This document shows, one piece after another, positions 3,316 through 59,111 of a stretch of DNA of 64,000 nucleotides. A model generated the notes under the pieces. It was not told the origin of the DNA. It worked only from the letters and a program-made list of their open reading frames with translations, and did no database searches. This DNA is from an uncultured Pelagibacteraceae bacterium (lineage in GTDB: Bacteria; Pseudomonadota; Alphaproteobacteria; Pelagibacterales; AG-422-B15): positions 12,672 through 76,671 of the forward strand of contig CACMWW010000004.1 in NCBI GenBank assembly GCA_902617525.1, written 5' to 3'. Numbering within the stretch: the first letter of the stretch is position 1; each line of letters opens with the position of its first letter. The translations under genes and the position numbers were made by a program.

Positions 3316-3325
3316 TAGTTTAAAC

Positions 3326-30958: not shown

Positions 30959-31931
30959 AAGTATCTTCCCACCTATCAAAAATAGTCCCATTCTGTATCA
31001 CCTTACTTATACCTTCGTCCAAAGTGACAACTGGATCCCAATTTAAGGTTTCTCTTGCAAGCGTTGAGTCACAAAATCTCTCAAATATTTCTCTATCAGC
31101 AGACCTATCAGCGTCGCTAAAGTCTTTGAGAAATTTAGGTTCAATAATTCCTATTTTTCCAGCCTGCGATATAATTTTATTTGCTAAACTTATGATGCTA
31201 ATGGGATTTTTTCCATTACCAATATTTAAAATTTTATTTACAGCCTTTTTTTCACTTATACAGAGTATGGTTGCCTCAGCGGTATCACTAACGTATGTAT
31301 AAGATCTCAATTGATTGCCATCTCCATTAATTATTGGAGATTTACCTTTAATGACTTCTTTAATAAATTTTGAAATTACAAATTGAGCTGTTTGATAAGG
31401 ACCGTAACAATTGAAGTATCTTAAAATAACGTAATTTAATCCAAAACGCTGGGAATATGCTTTACACATTTCCTCTCCAACTAATTTTGAAACTGCATAA
31501 ATTGTTTTACCCTGGGTAATGTGAGTTTCAGATATTGGATTGCTTAGGGGTTCTCCATAAACTTCAGATGATGATGCAAAAATAAATTTTTCCACCCCAC
31601 CTTGAATTACACAGTCTAAAATTGTTTTAGTACCCTCCACATTAATTTCCAAACACCTCAGCTTATCAGCTTCAGATCTTTTCACACCTAATAACGCTGC
31701 TAAATGAATTACAGTGTCACAATTCTTAATAGCATTTCGTAGAGTTGATGGATCTAATATTGAGCCATAAAATATATTTATTTTTGAGTCTAGTGCATCT
31801 TTAACACGATTTACTTGCTCACCTAAATCAAATAAATTTACGTCAAAACCTCTTTGAATTAATTTATTTGAGATTTCTATACCTATTAGACCTGCGCCTC
31901 CAATTACACAAACTTTTTTCATAATATCCAC
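30948..31931 (-). CDS. NAD-dependent nucleotide-sugar epimerase/dehydratase (extended SDR)
   Basis: 327 aa. Motifs: VIGGAGLIGIEI, SSSEVYG, YAVSKLVGE. Confidence 0.8.
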   Translation of the reverse strand: MDIMKKVCVIGGAGLIGIEISNKLIQRGFDVNLFDLGEQVNRVKDALDSKINIFYGSILDPSTLRNAIKNCDTVIHLAALLGVKRSEADKLRCLEINVEGTKTILDCVIQGGVEKFIFASSSEVYGEPLSNPISETHITQGKTIYAVSKLVGEEMCKAYSQRFGLNYVILRYFNCYGPYQTAQFVISKFIKEVIKGKSPIINGDGNQLRSYTYVSDTAEATILCISEKKAVNKILNIGNGKNPISIISLANKIISQAGKIGIIEPKFLKDFSDADRSADREIFERFCDSTLARETLNWDPVVTLDEGISKVIQNGTIFDRWEDTYDE

Positions 31932-31991: not shown

Positions 31992-32894
31992 TTAACCAAA
32001 ATAAAGATTTTTTAAACCCTCTTCCAAAGAAATTTTACTCTGAAAACCAGTATCTTTAATGGCTTTAGTCATGTCAGCACAACTGGACAACGCATCTCCA
32101 GGCTTTGCAGGTAAATTTTTCGTAGAGGATCTATTTTCAAAAGATAAAATTTTATTTGCTAAATCTTTAATTTTTGTTTCTTTGCCTGTACCGAGATTAT
32201 ATATACCAGCAATGTTTTCTTCTGCAGCAATGCAATAAAAATTTACTACATCACTTACATGAATAAAGTCTCGTGTCTGATTTCCAGAGTTATAAAGTTT
32301 TAATTCATCACCGTTTTTAGCATATTTTATAAAGGTAGGAATAACAGCTGAATACATGCTGTCAGTACTTTGTTTTGGACCATAAATATTAAAGCATCTT
32401 AGCGAACATGTCTCTATTCCAAAATTATCTGCGTAAAAATTAAGCATATCTTCTGATGATAACTTTGAAATTGAGTAAGGTGATGAACCATTCACACTCA
32501 TTTCTTCACTAACTTTTTTATGAGGAGAAAGTGGATAAACAGCACACGATGAGGCAAATATAATTTTTCTCACTGAATTATTAATAGCTGCTTGTAATAT
32601 ATTTGCAGTTCCTACAGTATTAATTTCGAAACATTCATTTGGTTTTCTAACTGAGCGTTGTACATCCACGATTGCTGCCAAATGAAATATCACGTCAGTT
32701 TTATTTAAATTATCATTTATTATATCAAAGTTTCTAATATCAGCCTCAATGAGTTTTGCTTCTGAATGTAAATTATTTCTATAACCAGAAGAAAAATTAT
32801 CCAAAACTGTGACGATGTAACCTTTTTTAAGAAGTTTTTCTACCAAATGAGTACCTACAAAGCCTGCACCACCAGTTACTAATACTTTTTTCAT
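31992..32894 (-). CDS. NAD-dependent nucleotide-sugar epimerase (GalE-like extended SDR)
   Basis: 300 aa. Motifs: VTGGAGFVGTHL and YSISKLSSE. Confidence 0.8.
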   Translation of the reverse strand: MKKVLVTGGAGFVGTHLVEKLLKKGYIVTVLDNFSSGYRNNLHSEAKLIEADIRNFDIINDNLNKTDVIFHLAAIVDVQRSVRKPNECFEINTVGTANILQAAINNSVRKIIFASSCAVYPLSPHKKVSEEMSVNGSSPYSISKLSSEDMLNFYADNFGIETCSLRCFNIYGPKQSTDSMYSAVIPTFIKYAKNGDELKLYNSGNQTRDFIHVSDVVNFYCIAAEENIAGIYNLGTGKETKIKDLANKILSFENRSSTKNLPAKPGDALSSCADMTKAIKDTGFQSKISLEEGLKNLYFG

Positions 32895-34177
32895 AGTGAT
32901 TTTCCTTTTTCAAAAGTTTCAATTTCACTACACATTTTATCAACTATTTTTTTTGAATCATAATATTTACTGAGAACTTCAAACCCTCCAAATGAGATTT
33001 TTTCTCTAAGTTTCACATCTTTTATAGCTCTTAATGTTTGATCGACCATTTGATTAATAGTATCACCAGCCAGAACATTTTCATCATTTTTGAGTTCCGG
33101 CATAGATAGTAATGCATCTGAATGTACAATATTTATAGTTCCCAACGAAAATACATGAAGGTATCTTGTGTGACATACTTTAAAGAAACTTGCATTGTTT
33201 AGAGTCAAAACTAGCTTAGCTTCCATTATTTCCCTATCAATATCATCAACAAATCCTCTAACGATTATTTCCTTATGATCTCTAATTAAACGTTGAATTT
33301 TTTTTTGTATTTTTCCTTTACCAATTATATGAAATTCAAATTGATCATTACTCTTTTCTTTCAATTTTGGAAAAAACTCCTTTGCAAAAAGGTATAATCC
33401 TAATGTATTTGCAGTGGCTTCAACATTACCAATATTTACTACGATTTTATTTTTTGCTAATTCAATATTTTTTTTCTTTGACAAAACATGCTCTTTATTA
33501 GGTACGACCCACATATTAGGTAAATAATTTATATGTTTTATTCCTTCATTTTGAAAGTCATGCGTATCATTAAGTGCAACATTTGATAAAATATCAATCT
33601 TTTGTAGAAATGATAAATAATATTTTTTAAGAAATATTACCTGTATCTTTCGAATTAAATAAATAAATAGTTTTTTAATATAATTTTGCTCATCAAAAAA
33701 AAATCTAAAGTAAGTTCTTGCATTAAATACCTTATAATCTGCATTACCATAGTAAGCATATTTTATTGAGTCTATTCTACTATGCGCTACTAAAGGCGTT
33801 ACCAATTCGTCCCAAACAACAATAATTACGTCTGGTTTCCATTTCTTACAGATATTCTCAAGTTCTTTGGTAAAAGATATTAAAGGAAAAAAATATTTTT
33901 CTTTAAATATATCAAACTTTACGATTTTTCTTAAAATATTTTTTTCTGTAAGTTTATTTGAATCTATTTTTAATTTTTCTACGACTTCAATTTTATAGCT
34001 ATTATATTCTTCTAGTATATTTTGATAATTATGAGCTGAGTCATCTAAATCTATCTTACAAAAACCTACTGTGTGTTTTTTTGAAAAATGTTTGAGAACT
34101 TCAAACGAAACCAAATTTGCTGCTTGCGTGATATTTTTTTCTGTAGGGTAAACAGAACTTATACTAAGTATCCGCAT
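32891..34177 (-). CDS. Putative glycosyltransferase (GT-B fold)
   Basis: 428 aa. Two-lobed layout. The C-terminal lobe (FEFHIIGKGKIQKKIQ...VRGFVDDIDREI) resembles GT1/GT4 donor domains, but there is no clean EX7E motif. Confidence 0.45.
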   Translation of the reverse strand: MRILSISSVYPTEKNITQAANLVSFEVLKHFSKKHTVGFCKIDLDDSAHNYQNILEEYNSYKIEVVEKLKIDSNKLTEKNILRKIVKFDIFKEKYFFPLISFTKELENICKKWKPDVIIVVWDELVTPLVAHSRIDSIKYAYYGNADYKVFNARTYFRFFFDEQNYIKKLFIYLIRKIQVIFLKKYYLSFLQKIDILSNVALNDTHDFQNEGIKHINYLPNMWVVPNKEHVLSKKKNIELAKNKIVVNIGNVEATANTLGLYLFAKEFFPKLKEKSNDQFEFHIIGKGKIQKKIQRLIRDHKEIIVRGFVDDIDREIMEAKLVLTLNNASFFKVCHTRYLHVFSLGTINIVHSDALLSMPELKNDENVLAGDTINQMVDQTLRAIKDVKLREKISFGGFEVLSKYYDSKKIVDKMCSEIETFEKGKSL

Positions 34178-34184
34178 TTGTGTC

Positions 34185-35204
34185 CTATATGCCGCCTAAC
34201 CTTATTTGGTTTTCAATCCAAGGTATTATCTCGTCTAATGCTTCAGACAAATCTGTTTTTGCCTCAAATCCTAATATTTTCTTAGCTTTTGATACGTCAG
34301 GAATTCTTTTTTGAACATCATGATCAAACGGTTCCTCCGAAAGAAATTTAAAATCTTTTTTTGGATTAATTTTTTTCCAAATTAGTTCTGCAAGCTCCAA
34401 AACGGTTGTGGATTTTGCAGTAGATATATTAAAATCTTCATTTATCGCATTTTTGTCTTCAATACACTTTCGTATTCCAATGGCTAAGTCTCCACCATAT
34501 GTGTAATGTCGAACCTGGTTACCATTTCCAAGTATTTGTAATGGATATTGACCTTTTAAAATCTTTTGAACAAGATCAGGTACCACATGGCTCATTGCTA
34601 AGCTTATATTTCCCGATTTAATATCTTTATCTCCAAGAGCCTTTTTTTCACCAATACCAATACAATTAAACGGCCTTATAATAGTATAAGGTAATTTATA
34701 TTGTTGCCATGCACCTTTTGCAAAATACTCTGAAGACAATTTCTGAAATCCATACGTTGATAGTGGTGGAGGACATCTTAATTCCTCGCCCTCTGGTGTT
34801 GGGTAATTATTTGTACTTTCAAATACCATTGAAGATGATAGAACATTAATTTTTTTTAATTTTTCATTTTGAAAAGCTTTTATTGCAGCATCGAAAGTCG
34901 ATGACAAAATTCTTTCATTTTCAGATAAAAGGTCATAAGCATATTCATGAAAATAACTTATACCTCCAATTTTTGCAGCAGATGCAACTACTTGATCACA
35001 ATCTTTCATTAGTGAATATAAAAGATCAGTATCTTTTGCATCACCCTGAACAAACTTGAAATTTTTATTATTCTGAAAACTTTTTTCAATATTTCCATAT
35101 TTAGAAAAGTTATCAATACCAACCACCTCATGACCTTTATTTAATAATTCATTAACCAAATAGCCAGAGATGAAACCGAAACATCCAGTAATTAAAATTT
35201 TCAT
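34185..35204 (-). CDS. NAD-dependent nucleotide-sugar epimerase/dehydratase (extended SDR)
   Basis: 339 aa. Motifs: ITGCFGFISGYL and YGFQKLSSE. Confidence 0.8.
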   Translation of the reverse strand: MKILITGCFGFISGYLVNELLNKGHEVVGIDNFSKYGNIEKSFQNNKNFKFVQGDAKDTDLLYSLMKDCDQVVASAAKIGGISYFHEYAYDLLSENERILSSTFDAAIKAFQNEKLKKINVLSSSMVFESTNNYPTPEGEELRCPPPLSTYGFQKLSSEYFAKGAWQQYKLPYTIIRPFNCIGIGEKKALGDKDIKSGNISLAMSHVVPDLVQKILKGQYPLQILGNGNQVRHYTYGGDLAIGIRKCIEDKNAINEDFNISTAKSTTVLELAELIWKKINPKKDFKFLSEEPFDHDVQKRIPDVSKAKKILGFEAKTDLSEALDEIIPWIENQIRLGGI

Positions 35205-35272
35205 CTTATTTTTTATATTTAAGTTTATGCAAAGTATAATTTTGAGTGGAAAATTACAAGTATATAATATCT

Positions 35273-36625
35273 CTAAGATTTACTTTCAATTCGCTTTAAG
35301 CATAAAGCATGGTTACCTAAGCTAATATAGTTGACACCTTCAGTAAAGTTTGCCTGGTCTATATCCATAGTATTCCAGAAATCATAAACAATACTATTTT
35401 TCTTCATTAAATTAGTTTTGTTTGATACTTTAAACTTTTGAAAATCGTTATGATTATTTAAAATTAAAACAAGGTGCGCTTCTTTCATTGCATTTGAAAT
35501 TGAAGGTGAATATTTGATTGACAAATTTTGAACTTCTTTTTTAGTTAAAAGCCTATCGTATCCGTATAAAATAGCTTTCGGAAAAACTTTTAGTATATTT
35601 TCTATTACTTTTATTGACATACTTCCTCTTAGATCACTTGTTTCTGGTACTCCCTTAAATGCTAATCCAAGCAAAGCTATTTTTATATTTTTAGGCCACT
35701 TAAGTTTTTTTGAAACTTTTTCAAGAAACTTAGATACATAGGTGGGCTGAAACTCATTTGTCTTTCTAGCAGACATTACTATTTTTGATTTAATTTTAAA
35801 CTTTTTTAAACTTTCATTTAAAATATAAGAATCTTTTGATAAGCATGGTCCACCTACTAAACCAGGAATGGGAACATTAGTCCTTGGGTAATCTTTTTTT
35901 CCCGAAGAGACAACTTCTTTTACATTTGCACCAACTTTGTCTGCAATCATTGCAATTTCGTTTGAATAAGCAAATATTAGATCTCTATAAGTATTATCAA
36001 CGAGTTTAATGGTCTCAGCAGTTTCAACATTACTTACCTTAATTGTGGTTGAGGTAACTTTTTGAAAGATTTTTTCAGATCGTTGCATTGACACATTATT
36101 AATACCACTAATTATTTGAGGCAGTTTTTCAAGTTCAGACAAAGCATCTCCCTCGAGTGTGCGCTCAGGACAAAATGATAACGAAAATTTCTTATGAGAT
36201 TTTTTTAGTATAGGCATAACAATATTTCTTGTAGTACCTATTTTTACAGTTGAGCGTAATATTATATGTGAGTCCTCTTCCATGGACTGAGCTATTTCTT
36301 TAGTTGCCCTCTCGATCATGTCTACTCTAGGCCTATTAAATTTATTAAGAGGTGTTCCCACAGTGATTATGTAATTATTAAATTTATTTTTTGCTTTAGG
36401 AATTCGATGGTGAGCACTAAAAAGTTTTTTTGATAAAACTCTTTTAAGCCTTAAGTTGATGTCTGTTTCGAAAAAATGCGATTTTCCTCGATTTAATATT
36501 TTTACTATGTTTTTATTTATTTCAACCCCATATACACGAAAACCTCTCTCAGCCATCACTACAGCAAGGGTTAGACCGACATATCCTAATCCAATTATGA
36601 CAACACCTTCTCTTTTTTTATCCAT
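35273..36625 (-). CDS. Nucleotide-sugar 6-dehydrogenase (UDP-glucose/GDP-mannose dehydrogenase family, possibly UDP-ManNAc/GlcNAc type)
   Basis: 450 aa. Has [21 protein letters not shown] and the catalytic-Cys segment GLVGGPCLSKD. Substrate cannot be assigned. Confidence 0.8.
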   Translation of the reverse strand: MDKKREGVVIIGLGYVGLTLAVVMAERGFRVYGVEINKNIVKILNRGKSHFFETDINLRLKRVLSKKLFSAHHRIPKAKNKFNNYIITVGTPLNKFNRPRVDMIERATKEIAQSMEEDSHIILRSTVKIGTTRNIVMPILKKSHKKFSLSFCPERTLEGDALSELEKLPQIISGINNVSMQRSEKIFQKVTSTTIKVSNVETAETIKLVDNTYRDLIFAYSNEIAMIADKVGANVKEVVSSGKKDYPRTNVPIPGLVGGPCLSKDSYILNESLKKFKIKSKIVMSARKTNEFQPTYVSKFLEKVSKKLKWPKNIKIALLGLAFKGVPETSDLRGSMSIKVIENILKVFPKAILYGYDRLLTKKEVQNLSIKYSPSISNAMKEAHLVLILNNHNDFQKFKVSNKTNLMKKNSIVYDFWNTMDIDQANFTEGVNYISLGNHALCLKRIESKS

Positions 36626-36638: not shown

Positions 36639-37799
36639 TTAATAAGTTATTCTTTTATCTATAAGTTTTTTATCTATTTTAAGATTTTCTAATAATTTAA
36701 CTATTCGTTTAGAGCTTTTTCCATCGCCGTATGGATTTTTACATAACTTAATTTTTTTTATGAAAGAATGTGATGTTGCTTTCTTAATTGATTTAAGTAT
36801 ATTTTCTACTTTAAAATCAGAATTTATTACGTTTATGGCCTGCATTCTACCTCGCTGCCTGTCGCCTATATTTACTACTGGCAGTTTAAATGAGGGAGCC
36901 TCAAGAATCCCACTACTGCTATTTCCAATCATCGCAGTAATATTATCTAAAAGTCCAATAAAGATATCTCTGTCTAGGTTTTTAAAAATAAAGATTTTAT
37001 CATTTTGAATTTTCAAAATTTCATCAATTATTTTTTCATTACCTGAGTCAATGTTAGGATAAATAATTATTGTTTGAAGTTCTGATTGTAAAATACTTTG
37101 CATTAGAATTTTAATTTCCTTTTTAGCATTATCTGTATCTATGAGAGTAGGATGATGTATACAAAGAAGTGTCTTTTTTTTTAAATCAATTTTTAATTCT
37201 CTAGACAAGAAATTTCTTGATAATTTTTTTCTATTTTTTATAAAATCGAGTTGTGGTGCACCAACATTAAATACTCTCCATTTTTCTTCACCTAAATTAA
37301 TTACTCTTTTTGCAGAATCATCACATGATGCTAAATGAATATGTGATAGCTTTGTAATTGCATGTCTTGCTGATCCATCAATATGGCCTGAAACATCACC
37401 TGCTTGGATATGCGCTACTGGAATATTCATGTATGCTGCGGCAATTGCAGCTGCAAACATTTCTCCTCTATCTCCAGTAACTATAATTAAATCAGGCTTA
37501 ATTTTTTGAAAAGATTGAGCTAGTCCAATTAATTCTACACCCAATGATTTTACAAAAGTAGATGGTGTATCGCCACTTACCAACATATCAACTTGATCAG
37601 TGATTGGTATCTTGTCCTTTATAATTTGTGATTTAGAATAGCCATATTGCTTTAGAGGATGCATTCCTGTTACAACAACACTCAAATCAATTTTTTTGGA
37701 AACTTTTAGCAGCTTAAGTATTCTTTTTTTATATCCATAAGTTGCTCTTGAAGATGCTATTACACATATTTTCTTTTTTATTTTTCTAGATCTGACCAT
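36639..37799 (-). CDS. neuC: UDP-N-acetylglucosamine 2-epimerase (hydrolysing type, NeuC-like)
   Basis: 386 aa. Has VTGDRGEMFAAAIAAAYMNIPVAHIQAGD and SGHIDGSARHAITKLSHIH. Sits directly upstream of neuB/neuA. Confidence 0.8.
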   Translation of the reverse strand: MVRSRKIKKKICVIASSRATYGYKKRILKLLKVSKKIDLSVVVTGMHPLKQYGYSKSQIIKDKIPITDQVDMLVSGDTPSTFVKSLGVELIGLAQSFQKIKPDLIIVTGDRGEMFAAAIAAAYMNIPVAHIQAGDVSGHIDGSARHAITKLSHIHLASCDDSAKRVINLGEEKWRVFNVGAPQLDFIKNRKKLSRNFLSRELKIDLKKKTLLCIHHPTLIDTDNAKKEIKILMQSILQSELQTIIIYPNIDSGNEKIIDEILKIQNDKIFIFKNLDRDIFIGLLDNITAMIGNSSSGILEAPSFKLPVVNIGDRQRGRMQAINVINSDFKVENILKSIKKATSHSFIKKIKLCKNPYGDGKSSKRIVKLLENLKIDKKLIDKRITY

Positions 37800-38818
37800 T
37801 TTATTTGTGCATCTTTTGGTATATCATTAACAAGTTTTCTTCCAATAATTTCTTTGTAATATTTAGCTGGAACCACATCTCCAGTTGGGCCTGGCCGCTT
37901 AACCCAAATGTCATTTTTTTCAATTTTATGCCCGGCCGACATTTGCTTTTCTGATACAACACTTTCTCTTGCCCAAGCTAATATCTGCTTTTCTTGATCA
38001 AATACTTTTTTTTCGCTACCACTTGCTAAAAATAATGCTTTGGAACCTTTTACAAGCTCACCTAATTCATCAGGCTCAATTGAAGAAGCATGGTCTGGGC
38101 CGCTCGCTAATTTATCAAGGGTAAAATGCTTTTCAATGACACACGCTCCCAAGGCGACCGCCCCAAGAGCGGTATATATCCCCCTTGAATGATCTGATAA
38201 CCCAACAGGTACTTTAAATGTATCTCGAAGAGTATTAATTGCACCGAGATTTATTATTTCATAAGGGCATGGATAGGCTGAAGTGCAATGCGTTAAAATA
38301 AAATCTGTACCAATTGATTTTACTAATTCTACTGTTTCTTTGATTTCCTCCATCTCACTCATTCCGGTTGAAATGATCATGGGTTTACCCTTTTTAGCAA
38401 TATGTTCAATAAGAGGTAAATTTGTTAATTCTCCTGAACCCGTCTTGAAAAACTCTACTCCAATTTCTTCTAATGCGTCTGCACCATCTCTACTGAAAGG
38501 GGTGCAGAGGTACTTAATTCCTAATATCTCACATAATTTTTTTAATTCTATATGTTCTTTAATTGTAAAGTTTGTTCGATCTAAAGCCTCCCATAGGGAT
38601 TCTTCAAAATTATCAGATTGAGGAGTCTCTCTAAGCATTTCATTTTCAAGGTTATGAATCTGAAATTTGATACAATCAGCACCTAAAGCATGAGCAAAAT
38701 ATATCATTTGCTTAGCCTTCTTAATATCGCCTTCATGATTAATGCATGCTTCTGCGATAATAAATGGTGGATAATTATCTCCTATTTCTTGAGTTCCTAT
38801 ATTTATTTTTTTAATCAT
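37778..38818 (-). CDS. neuB: N-acylneuraminate (nonulosonic acid) synthase with C-terminal SAF domain
   Basis: 346 aa. Has PFIIAEACINHEGDIKKAKQMI, KFQ, ISTGMS, and a C-terminal SAF-like segment (GHKIEKNDIWVKRPG). Confidence 0.9.
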   Translation of the reverse strand: MIKKINIGTQEIGDNYPPFIIAEACINHEGDIKKAKQMIYFAHALGADCIKFQIHNLENEMLRETPQSDNFEESLWEALDRTNFTIKEHIELKKLCEILGIKYLCTPFSRDGADALEEIGVEFFKTGSGELTNLPLIEHIAKKGKPMIISTGMSEMEEIKETVELVKSIGTDFILTHCTSAYPCPYEIINLGAINTLRDTFKVPVGLSDHSRGIYTALGAVALGACVIEKHFTLDKLASGPDHASSIEPDELGELVKGSKALFLASGSEKKVFDQEKQILAWARESVVSEKQMSAGHKIEKNDIWVKRPGPTGDVVPAKYYKEIIGRKLVNDIPKDAQIKWSDLEK

Positions 38819-39521
38819 GTTTTTTTTTCATTTTTAATATCTTTTCTATCATCAAAAAATCAAATGGTTCATTTATATCAAGTGACTCCTCACGAGAAAC
38901 AACTAAAGGGTAAATATGATTTCCCAATACTGAATTTTTATTTATTAGAACGTCGTATCTTGTAGCATATAATGTTCCACATTCAAAGTAGATAGGTTTT
39001 CTATCCTGCCTACGGCTTTTATTAAGCCTTTCTTTACTTGAAAAAATAAATCTCTTATTTTTTATTACGCCTATAGATTTTTTTGATGAAGAAACTGAAA
39101 TAACAGAGTCAAACGAATTTGTAGAAAGAGCATTGTATGCGTCTATGATATTTTTTTTTGATCTTAAAGGCGATGTTGGTTCTAATGTGAATATAACATC
39201 TGGTTTATAGTTAATTTTTTTTTGAACATATTGACATGCATGTATTAATGCTGACTCAGTTTTTGAATGATCAGTAGAATATTTTCTAGGTCTTTTTAAA
39301 GAAATGACATTTTTGTATGTTTTGCAAATTTGCAGTATTTTCTCATGGTCAGAAGATACAATAACGTGATCAAAAATTTTTGACTTAATAGCTTTTTCTA
39401 AAGAATATATAAAAAGAGGTTTTTTATGAAGTTTCTTTATATTTTTATTTTTGATGCCTTTTGATCCAGCTCTTGCCGGTATTACACATATACATTTAAG
39501 TTTTTTGTTCTTAATTTTCAT
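38811..39521 (-). CDS. neuA: Acylneuraminate cytidylyltransferase (CMP-nonulosonate synthetase)
   Basis: 236 aa. Has CVIPARAGSKGIKNKNI, EPTSPLR, and RRQD. Confidence 0.85.
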   Translation of the reverse strand: MKIKNKKLKCICVIPARAGSKGIKNKNIKKLHKKPLFIYSLEKAIKSKIFDHVIVSSDHEKILQICKTYKNVISLKRPRKYSTDHSKTESALIHACQYVQKKINYKPDVIFTLEPTSPLRSKKNIIDAYNALSTNSFDSVISVSSSKKSIGVIKNKRFIFSSKERLNKSRRQDRKPIYFECGTLYATRYDVLINKNSVLGNHIYPLVVSREESLDINEPFDFLMIEKILKMKKKHD

Positions 39522-40636
39522 TATTTTAACACTCTTAATACAATTTTTGTTCTTCTCTCTAGGATTTTATAAATTCCGTAAATATATTTTAATGCACTGT
39601 TTAAATGTAGAAACTCAAAATTTTTTGGGAAAGCCCATAATTTTAATATTTGAAATTTGTTTGGCTTATCATTCTTATTAACATAGTCAAAAAAATAAGC
39701 ATTATCATGAAGATAAAATTTTATTAAATACGTCTCTGCTAATGAAATAGACTTTTCATAATTATATTTTTTTGAAGTATCTGATATGACTTTTAGAGGC
39801 GTTGCTTCATCAGTTTTACCAACATTTTTGGGTAATTTGTTTATTTTAGTATCTCCAAATACAGATAATATGTTTGGTAATGGGTGTACACCAAAGTTTA
39901 GCCACTCAGAAACTTTATTAATTTCTTTAGAAGGATCCATAACAAGATCTTCATATTTTATAATTAAATGATTATTTTTATTTTTTATTTTGTTGATTAA
40001 AAAATCAGTATGAATTTCCCACCTTTTTAAAATTGTAAAGAGAGTGTCACCTCCTAAATACCAATTAGATCTTTTTAGAGGATTTTTCTTTTGTCTTGTT
40101 TCTCTCACTATAGACTCATATGTTTTAACTGGATCTCTTAAAAGATGTATAAATTTCATATCAGGAAAATACTGCTCATATAAATCCAAATATATTAATT
40201 CAACAGACCTAAATATTTTATTTTCTTTTATTTCGCCGTTATAAAGCCACTCAGAAAACCTATCCATAAAATCGTTTATGAATTCCTGTATTTCATATTC
40301 TCCACGAAAATGTTCTGTCAACTTAAGATTATTAGAACGCTTTTCTGAGTCTAAAAAATTTAGTTCAAATTGCTCCAAAATATCACTAACTTGGGATTGA
40401 TAATAATTTGAAATTTCTTCATTAATTATAAATCTTTTATTATAAAAAATATTTTTCGTGAAAACTGCATTATGTATAGTATTTTTTTTTAATACTTTTT
40501 TACCACTAGTCAGGTCGTTTATTGCTGAAAAAAAAATTGTTTCAAGAGGATGTACATATGTATTTGGTATACCATCTATGAGTCTTGAAAATAATGATGA
40601 CCCATTTCTACCAGTCCCAAATATACCTACTAACAT
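39521..40636 (-). CDS. Sulfotransferase family protein (PAPS-dependent type)
   Basis: 371 aa. N-terminal 5'-phosphosulfate-binding-like loop GIFGTGRNGSSLFSRL and a 3'-phosphate-binding-like HLLRDPVKTYES. Its ATG shares a base with the neuA stop (TAATG at 39521). Confidence 0.7.
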   Translation of the reverse strand: MLVGIFGTGRNGSSLFSRLIDGIPNTYVHPLETIFFSAINDLTSGKKVLKKNTIHNAVFTKNIFYNKRFIINEEISNYYQSQVSDILEQFELNFLDSEKRSNNLKLTEHFRGEYEIQEFINDFMDRFSEWLYNGEIKENKIFRSVELIYLDLYEQYFPDMKFIHLLRDPVKTYESIVRETRQKKNPLKRSNWYLGGDTLFTILKRWEIHTDFLINKIKNKNNHLIIKYEDLVMDPSKEINKVSEWLNFGVHPLPNILSVFGDTKINKLPKNVGKTDEATPLKVISDTSKKYNYEKSISLAETYLIKFYLHDNAYFFDYVNKNDKPNKFQILKLWAFPKNFEFLHLNSALKYIYGIYKILERRTKIVLRVLK

Positions 40637-40638
40637 TG

Positions 40639-41463
40639 CTAATTTATTAAACCTCTATTCTTTAGTAAAATCACAAATCTATTTGGGTTAAAATCAATTA
40701 ACTCAAAATTTCTTTTCATTAAAAAATTCAAACATGGTATTAAAGTGCTTTCTTGTAGCTCACCTCTTTCGTACCCTACATCTATCGAAATGAATTCAAC
40801 TTTACCTATATTTTTGCTTAATCCCTCGAGTATTTCAGGTTCAGCCCCTTCAGCCTCTAGCTTGATTAATTTAATATTTTGATCAATTTCGTCTATCAAA
40901 TTATCAAGTGTAAGTGTTTTGATTTTTATTTCTTCAGTATAATTTTTAATTTTTATTAGTGAGGAGTCTCCATACTCGCTCGATAAATAAAATGTAGCTA
41001 ATTCATCATTATTTTTATAAAGCGCTCTATTTATCAACTTCTGGTTCTTAATATTATAACTCAGATTACTAAATTCTATTGGTGAGGGCTCAATACCTAT
41101 ATATCTAATATTTTTACTAAAATACAAATATAAGTCACCATTGTTTGCTCCACAATCAATAACGATATCATCTTTTTGAAATTTGACCCTATGAAGTAAA
41201 TAATCGTTTCCAATTTGATATCCTCTTGCCTTAAGTCCATTTGAATATGCCATCAGGCCTTGTTTCCTATGATAAAATCTGTATTTATAGATATCGTCTT
41301 TGATAAAAAAGAATTCATTTTCTCTATAAATTCTACCGTTTAAATTGAATACAAATGAATAAAAATTGAATGCTGAAACATATGCTTGACCTTTTTGTAA
41401 ATAAACTAGTTTAAAGATAATTTTTTTTATAGGTCTAAAAATATTTTTTATGATCTTTTTCAT
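40639..41463 (-). CDS. FkbM-family methyltransferase
   Basis: 274 aa. Has VIDCGANNGDLYLYF and LIKLEAEGAEPEIL. Confidence 0.75.
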   Translation of the reverse strand: MKKIIKNIFRPIKKIIFKLVYLQKGQAYVSAFNFYSFVFNLNGRIYRENEFFFIKDDIYKYRFYHRKQGLMAYSNGLKARGYQIGNDYLLHRVKFQKDDIVIDCGANNGDLYLYFSKNIRYIGIEPSPIEFSNLSYNIKNQKLINRALYKNNDELATFYLSSEYGDSSLIKIKNYTEEIKIKTLTLDNLIDEIDQNIKLIKLEAEGAEPEILEGLSKNIGKVEFISIDVGYERGELQESTLIPCLNFLMKRNFELIDFNPNRFVILLKNRGLIN

Positions 41464-42890
41464 ATTTTATTTTTTAATAAATTATCTAAGTTGACTAAAT
41501 TAAATTTATTTAAAAGTACTCTAAATTTTAGAATAGCTAAAAATACAAAAATAAATATCAGTAAACATTTAAAAAGAAATGGTATTGAAAAATAGAATTC
41601 ATAAAAATAAATGAGAAAATATATTGATGTAATTTTTATGAAGTGCCTATCAATGTGTATGTTGCAGCCTTCTTTAAAAGCTAGAATTCTTCTCCAAAGT
41701 TGGACAGTAAAATTAGATAGTATAATTGATGTCAAACCACCATACATTCCACCATATTTTACTCCAAGATAAGTTATAAAAATGAAAAAAATACTAGAAA
41801 TTGTCATAGAGGTTGCAAGGATTTTTATCCTTTTTTGACTTACTAAATAAAAATTATAAATCGCACCATAAAGATATGCAAATATTATCAAATACCATAT
41901 AGGAATTAATGGTGCCGACTCGACAAATTTTCCGTGAGTTAACAAATTAACAACATCATAGCTAATTAAAATTAATATTATTCCTCCTGAAAAAAAAATT
42001 GTTGAGCAAATTTTTATAAATTTTGTTGTTTCTGTAATTTTAATAATATTTTTTTCAGTAAACGATTTGATAGTATCAGACATTAAGGTTTTAGTTAATG
42101 CTTTGTAAATAAACTTAAATATATTTGAATAACTTTGCGCATGAGAATAAATACCCAAAGTAGATAATGATAAGAAATATTGAATAAAATATCTGTCCGA
42201 TATATTTCCAATTGTTTCTGCAAGATTTGAGGGTATTGCTGGTAGTCCAGTTTTAATTACTTCTTCAATCCATTTTCTTGAAATTTCTATTTTTATATTT
42301 TTTGACAAAAATATTATTTCGAAAAACAATGAAATTGTGTTGACAATTAATGGTCCTAAAAAAAGTGAAATTACACCTAACTCTAGAACAATTAAAAAAA
42401 TTAAAACACTAACAAGGCTTATAAGGTTCCTAATTATTTCTAGTGCAAAGTATAATTTTGCTTTTTTTTGAATTATTAATAAGGCATTAACGGTTGGCCA
42501 GAACATTCCAGCTAAAACTCCTATTAATGCTATTTCAAATAATTGTTTATAACTGGTGTCATATTCGGCAATCACAAAATCCAAAATAAAACTACCAGAT
42601 AACCAATATAGAAGAACCCATAGTGACTTCAGAGAAAAATCAACTAAAAGTGTGTTAAAGATAAGTTTCTTTCTATCAACTTCATTGATTATAAAGTAAT
42701 TACTTCCCAATATCCACTCAGCGCCAGAGGATGCGAGTGGTCCAATAGGCGCAATAATGACCATAATTATTGCTACTACGCCAAAATCTTTTGGCTCTAG
42801 ATAGAATGTTGTAACAGGAATTAAAATTAAAAAAGATATAAATGCTTGAATAATTGAAGGGGCAAGAAAATAATTAAAATTTTTAAACAT
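41460..42890 (-). CDS. wzx: Wzx-type oligosaccharide flippase (MOP/polysaccharide biosynthesis protein family)
   Basis: 476 aa with about 12-14 TM segments and no soluble domain. The position within a glycan cluster fits a flippase. Confidence 0.65.
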   Translation of the reverse strand: MFKNFNYFLAPSIIQAFISFLILIPVTTFYLEPKDFGVVAIIMVIIAPIGPLASSGAEWILGSNYFIINEVDRKKLIFNTLLVDFSLKSLWVLLYWLSGSFILDFVIAEYDTSYKQLFEIALIGVLAGMFWPTVNALLIIQKKAKLYFALEIIRNLISLVSVLIFLIVLELGVISLFLGPLIVNTISLFFEIIFLSKNIKIEISRKWIEEVIKTGLPAIPSNLAETIGNISDRYFIQYFLSLSTLGIYSHAQSYSNIFKFIYKALTKTLMSDTIKSFTEKNIIKITETTKFIKICSTIFFSGGIILILISYDVVNLLTHGKFVESAPLIPIWYLIIFAYLYGAIYNFYLVSQKRIKILATSMTISSIFFIFITYLGVKYGGMYGGLTSIILSNFTVQLWRRILAFKEGCNIHIDRHFIKITSIYFLIYFYEFYFSIPFLFKCLLIFIFVFLAILKFRVLLNKFNLVNLDNLLKNKI

Positions 42891-42909: not shown

Positions 42910-43860
42910 TTAATTTTTTTTAAAATCTGTGTAGGTTTTTTTTAGACCATCAATTAAATTTATTTTTGGCGCCCAACCCAATGATTTTATAAGTGAGATA
43001 TCAAGCACCTTTCTTGGAGTTCCATCTGGTTGATTTTCATCAAATACTATGTCTCCCTTATATCCAATAATATTAGCGATTTGATGCGATAATTCATTGA
43101 TTGATATTTCTTCTCCTGAACCAACGTTAAGATGCGAAGTTTTGCTAATTACTTTTCTCTGATATTCATCATCATCTATTTTCATAACATGTAAAGTTGC
43201 CTTTGCAACGTCATCAACATAAAGAAATTCTCTCAGAGGTTTACCTGTACCCCATACATTAAATTTACTTTTTTTTTCTAACTTAGCTGTATGCATTCTT
43301 GAAATAAGGCCTGGGATTACGTGGCTATTTAATGGATGATAATTATCTCCAGGACCATACAAATTGCAAGGCATTAGAGATCTATAATCAGTTTTATATT
43401 GCTTATTGTAAGCTTCACATAATTTGATACCCGCAATTTTAGCTAAAGCATATGGTTCATTTGTTTGCTCTAACTTACCACTCAATAGGCAGTCTTCCTT
43501 TATTGGTTGTTCTGCATACTTTGGGTATATACAGGATGATCCAAGAAAAATTAATTTTGAAATAGAATTTTGAAAAGCTCCACTTATTAAATTTGTTTGA
43601 ATTGAAATATTTTCTAATAGAAAATCCACTGGATATTTACTATTTGCATGAATTCCACCTACTTTAGCTGCAGCTATAATAAGGTAATCAGGCTTATTAT
43701 TTTTTAAAAATTGATAAACATCATTTTTATTTAAAAGATCTAGATTTCTTCTATCAGCTAATATTATTTCTGATGCAAAATTTTGTTTCTGTAACTCACT
43801 CAGTATAGCTGAGCCAACCATTCCATTGTGACCAGCTACAAATACTTTACCAAACTTCAT
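42910..43860 (-). CDS. fcl: GDP-L-fucose synthase (GDP-4-keto-6-deoxymannose 3,5-epimerase/4-reductase)
   Basis: 316 aa. Has VFVAGHNGMVGSAI, GSSCIYP, and YALAKIAG. Lies directly downstream of gmd. Confidence 0.9.
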   Translation of the reverse strand: MKFGKVFVAGHNGMVGSAILSELQKQNFASEIILADRRNLDLLNKNDVYQFLKNNKPDYLIIAAAKVGGIHANSKYPVDFLLENISIQTNLISGAFQNSISKLIFLGSSCIYPKYAEQPIKEDCLLSGKLEQTNEPYALAKIAGIKLCEAYNKQYKTDYRSLMPCNLYGPGDNYHPLNSHVIPGLISRMHTAKLEKKSKFNVWGTGKPLREFLYVDDVAKATLHVMKIDDDEYQRKVISKTSHLNVGSGEEISINELSHQIANIIGYKGDIVFDENQPDGTPRKVLDISLIKSLGWAPKINLIDGLKKTYTDFKKN

Positions 43861-43881
43861 AGAATACTTACTGTATAAAAA

Positions 43882-44949
43882 TTAATTTTTATTTAAGTCA
43901 ACTTGCAACATCTCATCAACTAGTTCATCTAAGGAAATTTTTGGCTTCCAACCAAGAACTTTTCTTGCATTTGAAGAGTCACCCAACAAACTATCCACTT
44001 CTGATGGACGTATATATTTTTTATCTACCTTAACAATTGTATCACCAACATTTAATCCATCATATGTTTTTGATAAAGATGAAACTATACCCTCTTCACC
44101 TAGTTTTTTACCTCGCCATTTAATTTTAATACCAACTTTTTCAGATACAATTTTAACAAAATCTCTCACACTTACCTGATGTCCGGTACTAATAACAAAA
44201 TCTCTTGGCTTGTCTTGTTGCAGCATCATCCACTGCATTTCTACATAATCTTTAGCGTGTCCCCAATCTCTCATAGCATCAAGGTTACCTAAATACAAAG
44301 TTTTATTATTTGAATGACTTATATTTGAAAAAAACCTGGTTATCTTCCTTGTTACAAATGTTTCTCCTCTTCTAGGTGACTCGTGATTGAATAGTATTCC
44401 ATTGCATGCATACATTCCATATGCCTCACGATAATTTATTGTAATCCAATAAGCATATAATTTTGCAACGGCATATGGACTTCTTGGGTAAAATGGAGTT
44501 TTTTCAGTTTGCGGTATTTCAGTTACTTTACCATATAGTTCTGATGTAGAAGCTTGATAGAATTTTGTTTTTAAAAGGTTAAGCAACCTCAAACCTTCTA
44601 ATAATCTTAATGTACCTAAGGCATCAACATTTGCAGTATATTCAGCAGATTCAAACGACACAGCAACATGCGATTGAGCTGCAAGATTATAAACTTCATC
44701 TGGTCTAGTTTCCTGAAGAATTCTAATTAAATTTGCACCATCAGTAAGATCACCATAGTGCAAATAAAAACTTTTATCCTTAAACTGTGGCTCTTGATAA
44801 ATATGATCAATCCTTTCAGTGTTTAATGATGAAGATCTTCTTTTAATACCATGCACTTCATATCCTTTATTGAGCAGTAACTCTGCCATGTATGAGCCAT
44901 CTTGACCAGTAACACCAGTAATTAAAGCCACTTTCTTTTTATTATTCAT
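43882..44949 (-). CDS. gmd: GDP-mannose 4,6-dehydratase
   Basis: 355 aa. Has [50 protein letters not shown], and [10 protein letters not shown]. Confidence 0.92.

Positions 44950-59034: not shown

Positions 59035-59111
<77 letters not shown>

What the first reader, a model, noticed from the sequence alone, without database searches (positions are those of the whole stretch)
36639..41463. neuC-neuB-neuA nonulosonic-acid operon translationally coupled to a sulfotransferase and an FkbM methyltransferase
A complete CMP-nonulosonate pathway (hydrolysing 2-epimerase, synthase with SAF domain, cytidylyltransferase) runs directly into a sulfotransferase. The neuA stop and the sulfotransferase start share a base at 39521. 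The sulfotransferase carries PAPS-binding-like motifs (GTGRNGSS loop, LLRDPVKTYES). An FkbM methyltransferase and the Wzx flippase follow. This arrangement suggests a sulfated and/or O-methylated sialic-acid-like residue, or its neighbouring residue, on the surface glycan. Sulfated bacterial surface glycans are uncommon. Known examples are rhizobial Nod-factor/LPS sulfation and mycobacterial sulfolipids. No PAPS-synthesis genes (cysD/N, cysC) lie in the window. If the host is a SAR11-type organism, which is reported to lack assimilatory sulfate reduction, the PAPS source is an open question. Whether the product is Neu5Ac, legionaminic acid or another nonulosonate cannot be decided from sequence.
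Basis: partly seen in the sequence, partly recalled or inferred. Interest (0 to 1): 0.6.

Follow-up and report, generated by a model that had tools for sequence, protein, structure and literature searches.

The report
Sulfotransferase built into sialic-acid-like sugar cassette
A marine bacterium's surface-sugar gene island carries a previously uncharacterised sulfate-adding enzyme that, in very different bacteria, almost always sits beside the genes for a sialic-acid-like sugar, which points to a widespread sulfated, sialic-acid-like surface coat whose chemistry has not been described.

Summary
The genes are real and correctly identified, but they lie on the minus strand. Transcription therefore runs Wzx > FkbM methyltransferase > sulfotransferase > neuA > neuB > neuC. 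The base shared at 39521 joins the sulfotransferase stop to the neuA start (TAATG).

The 371-aa protein passes the Pfam Sulfotransfer_3 and Sulfotransfer_1 cut-offs. Both PAPS-binding motifs are invariant across its family. A confident AlphaFold model matches only PAPS-dependent sulfotransferases.

The main new result is context. The protein belongs to a small family (about 60 clusters at 50% identity among 1.84 billion representatives). Of 21 non-redundant loci with enough flank, 20 carry neuA, neuB and neuC within 10 kb, across at least eight named lineages. Frequent partners are a GT4-like glycosyltransferase, a Wzx flippase, two SDR enzymes and a KpsC-like GT-B protein. Five of the 21 loci also encode an APS kinase.

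Most likely this is a cytoplasmic, PAPS-dependent O-sulfotransferase acting on a nonulosonate-containing repeat unit. Whether the sulfate goes on the nonulosonate itself is unresolved.

The host was not identified. If it is SAR11, a published table lists cysC, cysQ and aprA in most cultured strains, which would give a PAPS route. Sulfated marine bacterial glycans are already known, so this is a new variant of a known kind.

The parts
39521..40636 (-). Sulfotransferase (371 aa), founding window member of a small uncharacterised family. Soluble; no hydrophobic segment.
   Evidence: Pfam Sulfotransfer_3 at 3e-14 and Sulfotransfer_1 at 1.4e-6, both above cut-off. No NCBIfam family matched. FGTGRNGS, H164, P169 and S175 are invariant; R167, S174 and E32 are nearly invariant. 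AF2 pLDDT 89 and pTM 0.90. Foldseek hits are all PAPS-dependent sulfotransferases. No TM segment.
38811..39521 (-). NeuA-like CMP-nonulosonate synthetase (236 aa). Its ATG overlaps the sulfotransferase stop codon by one base.
   Evidence: Pfam CTP_transf_3 76.5 bits. Best NCBIfam match is PseF at 135 bits, below the 205.7 cut-off. Best PDB matches are CMP-Neu5Ac synthetases 6ifd and 1eyr. TAATG junction.
37778..38818 (-). NeuB-type nonulosonate synthase with SAF domain (346 aa).
   Evidence: Pfam NeuB 266 bits and SAF 39.7 bits. TIGR03569 353.9 bits is below the 399.65 cut-off; PseI model 249 bits. N. meningitidis NeuB 256 bits, PseI 142 bits. 60-67% identical to NeuB in most cassette loci of other phyla (38% in L004).
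36639..37799 (-). NeuC-type hydrolysing NDP-HexNAc 2-epimerase (386 aa).
   Evidence: TIGR03568 417 bits, above the 235.9 cut-off. Best PDB match is the hydrolysing diacetylbacillosamine 2-epimerase 5zlr at 244 bits; human GNE 198 bits; N. meningitidis SiaA 53 bits.
40639..41463 (-). FkbM-family methyltransferase (274 aa), 2 nt upstream of the sulfotransferase. An accessory gene, not part of the conserved core.
   Evidence: Pfam Methyltransf_21 53.5 bits; TIGR01444 69.5 bits. An FkbM gene lies in the same locus as the sulfotransferase in 6 of 38 non-redundant loci including the window. Only 25% identity to the L013 FkbM.
41460..42890 (-). Wzx-type flippase (476 aa); conserved partner of the sulfotransferase.
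   Evidence: Pfam Polysacc_synt_3 52.7 bits. About 10 hydrophobic segments. 29-38% identical Wzx lies next to the sulfotransferase in other loci. Present in 15 of 21 loci.
32891..34177 (-). GT4-like glycosyltransferase 'GT1_a' (428 aa). It is the gene that most often directly abuts the sulfotransferase elsewhere; here it lies five genes downstream.
   Evidence: Pfam Glyco_trans_1_4 38 bits. A homologue lies within 300 nt of the sulfotransferase in 20 of 32 non-redundant loci with enough upstream sequence.
31992..32894 (-). Extended SDR 'SDR_b' (300 aa), a cassette member.
   Evidence: Pfam Epimerase 208 bits. Best PDB matches are generic NDP-sugar 4-epimerases. Present in 16 of 21 loci.
30948..31931 (-). 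Extended SDR 'SDR_c' (327 aa, SSSEVYG...YAVSK motif). It co-occurs with NeuABC in nearly every locus.
   Evidence: Pfam Epimerase 183 bits. LegB model 173 bits, below the 475 cut-off. 42-54% identical in most cassette loci (27% in L004). Present in 20 of 21 loci. Motif read.
26390..28003 (-). KpsC/KpsS-like GT-B protein 'unk537' (537 aa); probable CMP-ulosonate (nonulosonate) transferase.
   Evidence: No Pfam or NCBIfam hit for the window protein. Many homologues carry PF05159 Capsule_synth. AF2 pLDDT 90. GT-B fold, with KpsC structures 6mgb and 8fux giving the best target-normalised TM score, 0.49. Present in 15 of 21 loci.
28018..29892 (-). AsnB-like glutamine amidotransferase (624 aa), frequently at the distal end of the cassette.
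   Evidence: Pfam Asn_synthase 203 bits. TIGR01536 353 bits. The same gene type follows the cassette in L001, L012 and L015.
42910..44949 (-). Fcl-like GDP-fucose synthase (42910-43860) and Gmd (43882-44949), directly upstream of Wzx.
   Evidence: Gmd TIGR01472 564 bits, above the 415 cut-off. Fcl model 459 bits, just under the 500 cut-off. An Fcl homologue is present in 14 of 21 loci and Gmd in 9 of 21.
34185..36625 (-). NDP-sugar dehydrogenase (35273-36625) and SDR (34185-35204). In this window they sit between neuC and GT1_a; they are absent from that position in the related SAG locus L012.
   Evidence: TIGR03026 334 bits; Pfam Epimerase 123 bits. Compared with L012.

Best explanation
The 371-aa protein is a soluble, cytoplasmic, PAPS-dependent carbohydrate O-sulfotransferase. 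It belongs to a Wzx/Wzy-type surface-glycan pathway whose repeat unit contains a nonulosonic (sialic-acid-like) acid.

It is part of a horizontally mobile cassette found across distant phyla. The cassette comprises a GT4-like glycosyltransferase, the sulfotransferase, a dedicated Wzx, two SDR sugar-nucleotide enzymes, NeuA, NeuB, NeuC and a KpsC-like GT-B transferase.

Proposed sequence of events:
1. NeuC, NeuB and NeuA make a CMP-nonulosonate. The two SDRs may modify its precursor.
2. The GT4-like and KpsC-like transferases build a short lipid-linked unit on the cytoplasmic face of the membrane.
3. The sulfotransferase transfers sulfate from PAPS to a hydroxyl of that unit.
4. Wzx flips the unit across the membrane.

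Shown here: the gene identities, the sulfotransferase fold and PAPS motifs, the tight operon packing, and the cross-phylum linkage to NeuABC and to APS kinase.

Inferred: timing before flipping, the lipid-linked acceptor, the identity of the sulfated residue (the nonulosonate or the sugar added by the GT4-like enzyme), and the role of the KpsC-like protein as the nonulosonate transferase.
For: Fold and cofactor:
- Pfam matches are above cut-off.
- The 5'-phosphosulfate loop FGTGRNGS is invariant in 44 aligned family members. In the 3'-phosphate motif, H164, P169 and S175 are invariant and R167 and S174 nearly so.
- The family profile aligns its 3'-phosphate motif with that of the CurM sulfotransferase (E 6e-10).
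- The AF2 model is confident (pLDDT 89, pTM 0.90).
- All 50 listed PDB fold matches, 17 of them at E <= 0.001, are PAP- or PAPS-binding sulfotransferase-fold proteins: CurM, TPST1/2, Stf1, heparan sulfate 3-OST and others.
- Verified adenylyl-sulfate kinase genes lie within 10 kb in 5 of 21 well-covered loci, plus L042.

Glycan context:
- Of 21 non-redundant loci with at least 7 kb downstream, 20 have NeuA, NeuB, NeuC and SDR_c within 10 kb.
- The GT4-like gene abuts the sulfotransferase in 20 of 32 loci.
- Source lineages include Gemmatimonadota, Lentisphaerae, Rhodocyclaceae, Anaerolineales, Ca. Endobugula, Deltaproteobacteria, Methylomirabilis and Peribacteria.
- The protein has no TM segment, and the operon is tightly packed with Wzx, with overlapping stop and start codons.
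- The KpsC-like assignment rests.

Published chemistry: nonulosonates and sulfate co-occur in environmental EPS, while known reference sulfotransferases give few hits there (PMC10483923).
Against: - No biochemical data exist for any family member.
- The window's closest subclade (38-40% identity) includes loci with no neu genes in the sequence available (L003, L013, L023, L025). A nonulosonate is therefore not an obligatory acceptor.
- No PAPS-forming gene lies in the window, and the host genome could not be inspected.
- The catalytic base is only guessed (invariant H29, nearly invariant E32).
- The fold matches have modest TM scores (0.45-0.64), so substrate-pocket details cannot be read.
- The KpsC-like protein gave no direct Pfam hit and no PDB sequence hit.
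Confidence: 0.62

Rival explanations
1. The enzyme is a dedicated nonulosonate O-sulfotransferase. It sulfates the sialic-acid-like residue itself, either as free or CMP-activated sugar or after transfer. It would be the bacterial counterpart of the vertebrate sialate O-sulfotransferases WSCD1 and WSCD2.
For: - NeuABC co-occurs in 20 of 21 well-covered loci, the strongest linkage measured, equalled only by SDR_c.
- The gene sits directly upstream of neuA in the window, L012, L005, L024 and L049, overlapping its start in the window, L012 and L005.
- Sulfated sialic acids exist in animals and have dedicated enzymes (PMC9304399).
Against: - Four loci of the window's own subclade keep Wzx, FkbM, the sulfotransferase and the GT4-like gene but show no neu genes in 4-10 kb of downstream sequence.
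- In most loci the immediate neighbour is the GT4-like gene, not neuA.
- My library searches found no report of a sulfated bacterial nonulosonate.
Confidence: 0.28
2. The enzyme sulfates a neutral or 6-deoxy sugar of the repeat unit, such as the residue installed by the GT4-like transferase or a fucose made by Gmd and Fcl. The nonulosonate is merely another component of the same unit. The FkbM enzyme methylates the same or a neighbouring residue, as in the sulfated 2-O-methylfucose of Rhizobium NGR234 Nod factors (from memory, not tested).
For: - The GT4-like gene abuts the sulfotransferase in 20 of 32 loci and stays with it in the neu-less loci.
- An Fcl homologue is present in 14 of 21 loci and Gmd in 9 of 21, and both lie directly upstream of Wzx in the window.
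- The known marine sulfated capsules carry sulfate on rhamnose, a 6-deoxyhexose (PMC11641403, PMC11766843).
Against: - Gmd and Fcl are less constant than NeuABC.
- GT4-family enzymes are retaining and are not typical fucosyltransferases (general knowledge).
- In the window the GT4-like gene is separated from the sulfotransferase by five genes.
Confidence: 0.3
3. The gene is a non-functional or repurposed passenger in this host. It would have been acquired with the cassette by a streamlined marine bacterium that cannot make PAPS.
For: - No PAPS genes lie in the window.
- The text of the SAR11 literature stresses the absence of assimilatory sulfate reduction (PMC5069961).
- The host was not identified.
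Against: - The ORF is intact.
- All residues invariant in the family are retained.
- The identical protein recurs on a second NCBI assembly record (GCA_902582895.1, possibly a single-cell genome) and in a JGI metagenome contig.
- Base composition matches the surrounding island.
- Table 3 of PMC5069961 lists cysC and aprA in five of seven SAR11 strains and cysQ in all seven.
Confidence: 0.07

Closest known systems
Polysaccharide sulfotransferases in marine capsule/O-antigen clusters (Vibrio sp. KMM 8419, Cobetia marina KMM 1449)
   Same: A cytoplasmic Sulfotransfer-fold enzyme is encoded inside a surface-polysaccharide cluster. PAPS genes (cysC, cysDN) are sometimes in the same cluster. The host is a marine bacterium (PMC11641403, PMC11766843).
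   Different: Those systems are ABC-transporter (Kps-type) capsules with sulfated rhamnose and no nonulosonate pathway. Here the pathway is Wzx-dependent and the sulfotransferase family is tied to NeuABC in 20 of 21 loci. I did not compare sequences with those enzymes.
CurM / olefin-synthase sulfotransferase domains and tyrosylprotein sulfotransferases (PDB 4gbm, 4gox, 5wrj, 3ap1)
   Same: These are the best fold and profile matches. They share an Arg-type 5'-phosphosulfate loop (xxRxGS/T) and the R...S 3'-phosphate motif.
   Different: Sequence identity is 12-16%. Their acceptors (beta-hydroxyacyl-ACP, tyrosine) are unrelated to glycans. The window protein has about 90 extra C-terminal residues.
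Vertebrate sialate O-sulfotransferases WSCD1/WSCD2
   Same: These are the only enzymes known to sulfate a sialic acid (PMC9304399). They would be functional analogues if the nonulosonate is the acceptor.
   Different: They are Golgi membrane proteins with WSC domains that act on vertebrate sialoglycans. Homology to the window protein was not tested here.
Rhizobial and mycobacterial carbohydrate sulfotransferases (NodH, NoeE, LpsS, Stf0)
   Same: They are PAPS-dependent sulfotransferases acting on bacterial glycoconjugates.
   Different: No NCBIfam model of any kind matched the window protein. Their gene contexts contain no nonulosonate pathway. This comparison rests on general knowledge, not on a sequence test.
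KpsC/KpsS beta-Kdo transferases (Pfam Capsule_synth, GT107)
   Same: The cassette's 537-aa protein has a GT-B fold with KpsC among its best structural matches. Many of its homologues carry PF05159. KpsC and KpsS use a CMP-activated ulosonic acid donor.
   Different: The window protein has no direct Pfam hit and no PDB sequence hit. The donor here would be a 9-carbon CMP-nonulosonate rather than CMP-Kdo, which is an inference.

Membership tests
PAPS-dependent sulfotransferase superfamily (Pfam Sulfotransfer_3 / Sulfotransfer_1) | Profile match above the curated cut-off | tested here: met
   Sulfotransfer_3 54.2 bits against 27; Sulfotransfer_1 28.3 bits against 22.
PAPS-dependent sulfotransferase superfamily (Pfam Sulfotransfer_3 / Sulfotransfer_1) | 5'-phosphosulfate-binding loop after strand 1 | tested here: met
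   FGTGRNGS (residues 6-13) is invariant in 44 sequences. It lies after strand E2-7 of the model. It pairs, in a weak below-threshold stretch of the profile alignment, with the CurM loop SSPRSGSTL.
PAPS-dependent sulfotransferase superfamily (Pfam Sulfotransfer_3 / Sulfotransfer_1) | 3'-phosphate-binding motif (R...S) | tested here: met
   In HLLRDPVKTYES, H164, P169 and S175 are invariant and R167 and S174 are nearly invariant. The motif aligns to YLVRHPYSVIES of CurM ST.
PAPS-dependent sulfotransferase superfamily (Pfam Sulfotransfer_3 / Sulfotransfer_1) | Sulfotransferase alpha/beta fold | tested here: met
   AF2 pLDDT 89. All 50 listed Foldseek PDB matches are sulfotransferase-fold proteins; the best is 4gbm at E 3e-7 with TM 0.60 on the target.
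PAPS-dependent sulfotransferase superfamily (Pfam Sulfotransfer_3 / Sulfotransfer_1) | Catalytic base (His or Glu) positioned at the acceptor hydroxyl | tested here: inconclusive
   Invariant H29, E146 and H209 and nearly invariant E32 are candidates. Model coordinates could not be inspected.
PAPS-dependent sulfotransferase superfamily (Pfam Sulfotransfer_3 / Sulfotransfer_1) | Sulfate transfer from PAPS in vitro | not testable with these tools
   The only indirect support is APS kinase genes in 5 of 21 related loci.
Neu5Ac pathway (NeuC/NeuB/NeuA equivalogs) | Hydrolysing 2-epimerase equivalog | tested here: met
   TIGR03568 417 bits against 235.9. This model does not separate NeuC from LegG-type enzymes. 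The best PDB match is a diacetylbacillosamine 2-epimerase.
Neu5Ac pathway (NeuC/NeuB/NeuA equivalogs) | N-acetylneuraminate synthase equivalog score | tested here: not met
   TIGR03569 353.9 bits is below the 399.65 cut-off. The PseI model scores 249 bits against 340. It is a NeuB-family synthase of undetermined specificity.
Neu5Ac pathway (NeuC/NeuB/NeuA equivalogs) | CMP-nonulosonate synthetase of defined specificity | tested here: inconclusive
   CTP_transf_3 is met. The best equivalog, PseF, scores 135 bits against 205.7. PDB matches are CMP-Neu5Ac synthetases at 64-80 bits.
Legionaminic/pseudaminic acid pathways | Linked 4,6-dehydratase, aminotransferase and N-acetyltransferase | tested here: not met
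   The conserved cassette has no DegT aminotransferase or acetyltransferase. The SDRs score far below the LegB and PseB cut-offs. A DegT gene exists 25 kb away at 10505-11611, but it is not part of the cassette.
Curated bacterial protein families (NCBIfam) | Any curated family model matching the sulfotransferase | tested here: not met
   Zero NCBIfam hits at E <= 0.01.
KpsC/KpsS Capsule_synth family (for the 537-aa protein at 26390-28003) | PF05159 match and GT-B fold resembling KpsC | tested here: inconclusive
   The window protein has no Pfam hit at 1e-4. PF05159 is precomputed on many homologues. The fold is GT-B, with KpsC at TM 0.49 on the target, but generic GT-B proteins have lower E-values.
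SAR11 (Pelagibacter) hypervariable region HVR2 | Island lying among the split rRNA genes, bounded by Phe/His and Arg tRNAs, in a Pelagibacter genome | tested here: inconclusive
   The window has no rRNA and only a tRNA-Met. GC of 24-31% and the glycan gene content fit. The nearest homologues of the TrhO-like housekeeping gene are 59-60% identical and unnamed. Criteria are taken from bioRxiv 10.64898/2026.04.03.716430.

The most novel reading that the evidence does not exclude
This family is the first bacterial nonulosonate (sialic-acid-like) O-sulfotransferase. The nine-gene cassette around it would make a conserved sulfated, sialic-acid-like surface epitope in bacteria from ocean plankton to wastewater granules and sediments. 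That would supply the missing genetic basis for the chemically observed co-occurrence of sialylation and sulfation in environmental biofilm matrices. In SAR11-type cells, it would also give a role to the retained AprBA-CysC-CysQ genes: making PAPS from sulfite without sulfate assimilation.
Probability: 0.25. Interest if true: 0.8.

Novelty: new variant of a known kind. Interest (0 to 1): 0.55.

Why it matters
Polysaccharide sulfation by PAPS-dependent enzymes is known in bacteria, but very few enzymes are characterised. None is linked to sialic-acid-like sugars.

This analysis defines a small family that no curated model covers. Its members are embedded in nonulosonate clusters in 20 of 21 informative loci, across distant phyla.

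Three practical consequences follow.
- It gives a concrete candidate gene, and a compact cassette, to test in groups where sulfated and sialylated extracellular polymers are measured but reference sulfotransferases give few hits (PMC10483923).
- It suggests why sulfate-non-assimilating SAR11 strains keep cysC and cysQ (PMC5069961, Table 3).

Tried and rejected
Host identification failed.
- Rfam found no rRNA in the window.
- Exact-cluster look-ups of ten window proteins returned no organism names.
- A full homology search with the TrhO-like housekeeping gene returned only unnamed marine sequences at 60% identity or less.
- Contigs overlapping the window ends were short.
- A tRNA-Met search against phage genomes gave only generic tRNA matches.

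A possible PAP phosphatase just outside the window (Inositol_P protein on L019) turned out to be HisN-like (265 bits) rather than CysQ (88 bits against 229). I dropped it.

Promoter and terminator scans gave no more sites than shuffled sequence, so operon boundaries are not defined.

Typing the nonulosonate was attempted through NeuB, NeuC and NeuA matches to PDB and NCBIfam, and through the two SDRs. None of these discriminated. The SSSEVYG motif of SDR_c resembles decarboxylase- or dehydratase-type SDRs, but I do not rely on it.

PDB sequence searches were empty for the GT4-like protein and for the 537-aa protein or its profile.

A scan of IMG/VR found no viral copy of the sulfotransferase family.

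A profile search of all window ORFs of 60 aa or more found no second sulfotransferase.

Full report
**Observation**

The region 36639-41463 holds five intact ORFs, all on the minus strand.

- 36639-37799 is a NeuC-type hydrolysing 2-epimerase (TIGR03568 417 bits, cut-off 235.9).
- 37778-38818 is a NeuB-family synthase with a SAF domain.
- 38811-39521 is a CTP_transf_3 cytidylyltransferase.
- 39521-40636 matches Sulfotransfer_3 (54.2 bits, cut-off 27) and Sulfotransfer_1 (28.3 bits, cut-off 22).
- 40639-41463 is an FkbM methyltransferase.

The next gene upstream in transcription, 41460-42890, is a Wzx-type flippase.

Because everything is on the minus strand, transcription runs Wzx > FkbM > sulfotransferase > neuA > neuB > neuC. 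The base at 39521 is shared by the sulfotransferase stop codon and the neuA start codon (TAATG). The junctions in this stretch are -4, +2, -1, -8 and -22 nt. The genes are part of a block of 27 co-directional genes (49140 down to 19635) with gaps of at most 68 nt. Promoter and terminator pattern scans were no better than chance.

**Is it a sulfotransferase that uses PAPS?**

A search of 5.8 billion proteins found only 57 relatives. All complete ones are about 360-380 aa and align end to end. The nearest non-identical relatives are 38-39% identical.

In the second motif, H164, P169 and S175 are invariant, and R167 and S174 are nearly so.

A profile of the family matches the CurM sulfotransferase domain among PDB sequences (E 6e-10). 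The 3'-phosphate motifs are aligned in that match.

An AlphaFold model built on the alignment is confident (pLDDT 89, pTM 0.90). Its PDB fold matches are all sulfotransferase-fold proteins that bind PAP or PAPS. They include CurM ST, tyrosylprotein sulfotransferases, the olefin-synthase ST, Stf1 and heparan sulfate 3-O-sulfotransferases.

The protein has no hydrophobic segment, so it should work in the cytoplasm, where PAPS is made. No NCBIfam model matches it.

An exhaustive profile search of 1.84 billion cluster representatives found 62 family members at E <= 1e-30. Scores then fall away over the next few dozen, mostly fragmentary, hits into the general Sulfotransfer_3 background. It is therefore a small, distinct, uncharacterised family.

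**Context across genomes**

I collected loci from one-genome-per-species contigs, from contigs encoding specific family members and from JGI metagenomes. I classified their ORFs by BLASTP against the window's proteins.

- 48 loci carry a family member; 38 remain after removing copies at least 90% identical.
- Of the 21 with at least 7 kb downstream, 20 have NeuA, NeuB and NeuC within 10 kb, and 20 also have the SDR at window 30948-31931.
- 17 of 21 have the GT4-like glycosyltransferase of window 32891-34177. It directly abuts the sulfotransferase in 20 of 32 loci with enough upstream sequence.
- 15 of 21 have a related Wzx.
- 15 of 21 have a homologue of the 537-aa protein at 26390-28003.

The commonest order is GT4-like, sulfotransferase, Wzx, SDR, SDR, NeuA, NeuB, NeuC, 537-aa protein. 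Gmd, Fcl and sugar methyltransferases often lie upstream. A few loci also have MarR-type or RfaH-type regulator genes upstream; the RfaH assignment was checked on L022.

Named sources span Gemmatimonadota, Lentisphaerae, Rhodocyclaceae, Anaerolineales, Ca. Endobugula sertula, a deltaproteobacterium, Ca. Methylomirabilis and Peribacteria. GC content of the loci ranges from 0.27 to 0.68.

NeuB is 60-67% identical between the window and most of these distant hosts (38% in L004), while the sulfotransferase is only 28-39% identical. This pattern fits an old cassette that moves horizontally.

The window is a rearranged version. The sulfotransferase sits directly before neuA, as it does in a second marine assembly (L012) and a low-GC metagenome contig (L024). 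The GT4-like gene lies five genes further on.

**The 537-aa protein**

It has no Pfam, NCBIfam or PDB sequence match of its own. Many of its 165 detected homologues carry the Capsule_synth domain of KpsC/KpsS.

A confident model (pLDDT 90) has a GT-B fold. KpsC beta-Kdo transferases give the best target-normalised TM score (0.49). KpsC and KpsS use a CMP-activated ulosonic acid, so I infer that this protein is the CMP-nonulosonate transferase of the cassette. This step is inference.

**PAPS supply**

The window has no APS kinase, ATP sulfurylase or PAPS reductase-type gene.

In related loci an adenylyl-sulfate kinase lies within 10 kb of the sulfotransferase in 5 of 21 well-covered cases, plus L042. 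Two of these were checked against NCBIfam and pass the cut-off: L022 with 288 bits against 163, and L007 with 179 bits against 127. This independently supports PAPS as the donor.

I could not establish the host. The window contains no rRNA. Exact-cluster look-ups gave no organism names. The nearest relatives of a TrhO-like housekeeping gene are unnamed marine sequences, 59-60% identical at best. The identical sulfotransferase occurs on a contig of NCBI assembly GCA_902582895.1 and in a JGI metagenome.

Table 3 of PMC5069961 lists cysC and aprA in five of seven SAR11 strains and cysQ in all seven, although cysDN, cysH, cysIJ and sat are mostly missing. PMC3448164 also mentions aprBA and/or APS kinase. 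Sulfite to APS via AprBA, then to PAPS via CysC, is my inference from those tables.

**Which residue is sulfated?**

This remains open.

- For the nonulosonate: the 20 of 21 linkage, and the direct neuA adjacency in the window's type of locus.
- Against it: four loci of the window's closest subclade keep Wzx, FkbM, the sulfotransferase and the GT4-like gene but show no neu genes in the available 4-10 kb (L003, L013, L023, L025). In addition, the most frequent immediate neighbour is the GT4-like gene.

The nonulosonate type is also open. NeuB is below the Neu5Ac-synthase equivalog cut-off but closer to it than to PseI. NeuC is closest to a solved hydrolysing diacetylbacillosamine 2-epimerase and to human GNE. 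NeuA is ambiguous. The cassette has no aminotransferase or acetyltransferase. The two SDRs match only generic 4-epimerases.

**Comparison with what is known**

Sulfated capsular polysaccharides whose clusters contain both sulfotransferase and PAPS genes are described for marine Vibrio and Cobetia (PMC11641403, PMC11766843). Sulfotransferases are also listed among typical contents of the Pelagibacter hypervariable region (bioRxiv 10.64898/2026.04.03.716430). A sulfotransferase in a marine glycan island is therefore not new in itself.

Three library searches combining sulfotransferase with nonulosonic, neuB or gene cluster found no bacterial enzyme or cluster linking the two. The only sialic acid sulfotransferases retrieved are vertebrate WSCD1 and WSCD2 (PMC9304399). 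One study reports that nonulosonates and sulfate co-occur in granular-sludge polymers while reference sulfotransferases give few hits (PMC10483923).

**Verdict**

The sulfotransferase call is well supported. The linkage to a nonulosonate pathway is a conserved, cross-phylum feature rather than a local accident. The acceptor, the nonulosonate type and the host remain undetermined.

I class this as a new variant of a known kind (PAPS-dependent glycan sulfation) and rate its interest as moderate to fairly high.

Noticed in passing
window 26390-28003 (-): A 537-aa protein with no Pfam, NCBIfam or PDB sequence hit. It belongs to a family of at least 165 members, many carrying Capsule_synth (KpsC/KpsS). 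The model has a GT-B fold. It is conserved next to neuC across phyla and is a candidate CMP-nonulosonate transferase.
   Followed up: yes
L022 7949-8518; L006 3466-4026; L007 7957-8397; also L035, L042, L053: Adenylyl-sulfate (APS) kinase genes lie within 10 kb upstream of the sulfotransferase in several related loci. None is present in the window.
   Followed up: yes
L022 1056-1988; L015 1-642; MarR-type ORFs also in L003, L006, L008: A MarR-type regulator gene and, in L015 and L022, a NusG paralogue lie upstream of the cassette. The L022 paralogue passes the RfaH model (152 bits against 144.5). This suggests operon-specific antitermination of these long glycan operons. No such gene was seen in the window.
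   Followed up: partly
window 8759-10493 and 10505-11611 (-): A split transketolase-like pair lies next to a DegT aminotransferase. Homologues of one or more of these genes recur near the sulfotransferase in the neu-less loci (L003, L011, L013). This may mark a branched or two-carbon-extended sugar pathway.
   Followed up: no
window 4769-5266 (-): A SET-domain protein (93.6 bits) is encoded between a Wzz-like gene and heptose-pathway genes. This is an unusual thing to find in a bacterial glycan island.
   Followed up: no
window 28018-29892 and 53553-55373 (-): Two AsnB-like glutamine amidotransferases lie in one island. An AsnB-like gene also follows the cassette in L012 and L015. They may amidate uronic or ulosonic acid carboxylates.
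   Followed up: no
window 17250-19085 (-): A NodU/CmcH-type carbamoyltransferase (341 + 231 bits) suggests an O-carbamoylated sugar in the same surface glycan.
   Followed up: no
window 2821-4785 and 25831-26382 (-): Heptose-nucleotide pathway genes are split between two places in the island. One group has a HAD phosphatase, a cytidylyl/adenylyl-transferase-like gene and a PfkB kinase. A SIS isomerase lies 21 kb away.
   Followed up: no
window 49214-50140 (+): This methyltransferase-like gene is the only plus-strand gene interrupting roughly 37 kb of minus-strand glycan genes. It marks a likely operon boundary or insertion point.
   Followed up: no
window 59035-59111 (-): A single tRNA-Met sits inside the island between glycan genes. 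The window has no rRNA, which does not match the rRNA-flanked layout described for the Pelagibacter HVR2.
   Followed up: partly
window 1885-2826 (+): The nearest relatives of this TrhO-like (UPF0176/rhodanese) housekeeping protein, among thousands of marine homologues, are only 59-60% identical. The host lineage seems poorly sampled or divergent.
   Followed up: partly
L019 3234-4037 (about 2.5 kb beyond the window's left end): An inositol-monophosphatase-family gene that I suspected of being the PAP phosphatase CysQ. It scores as HisN-like histidinol-phosphatase (265 bits) rather than CysQ (88 bits).
   Followed up: yes
L015 12603-13637 and homologues in L006, L009, L010, L041, L044, L046-L048: A NanM-like putative sugar O-methyltransferase (TIGR04371) recurs inside the cassette. 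TylF-like and Methyltransf_13/14 genes recur upstream. Methylation therefore accompanies sulfation in many loci, through enzymes different from the window's FkbM.
   Followed up: partly
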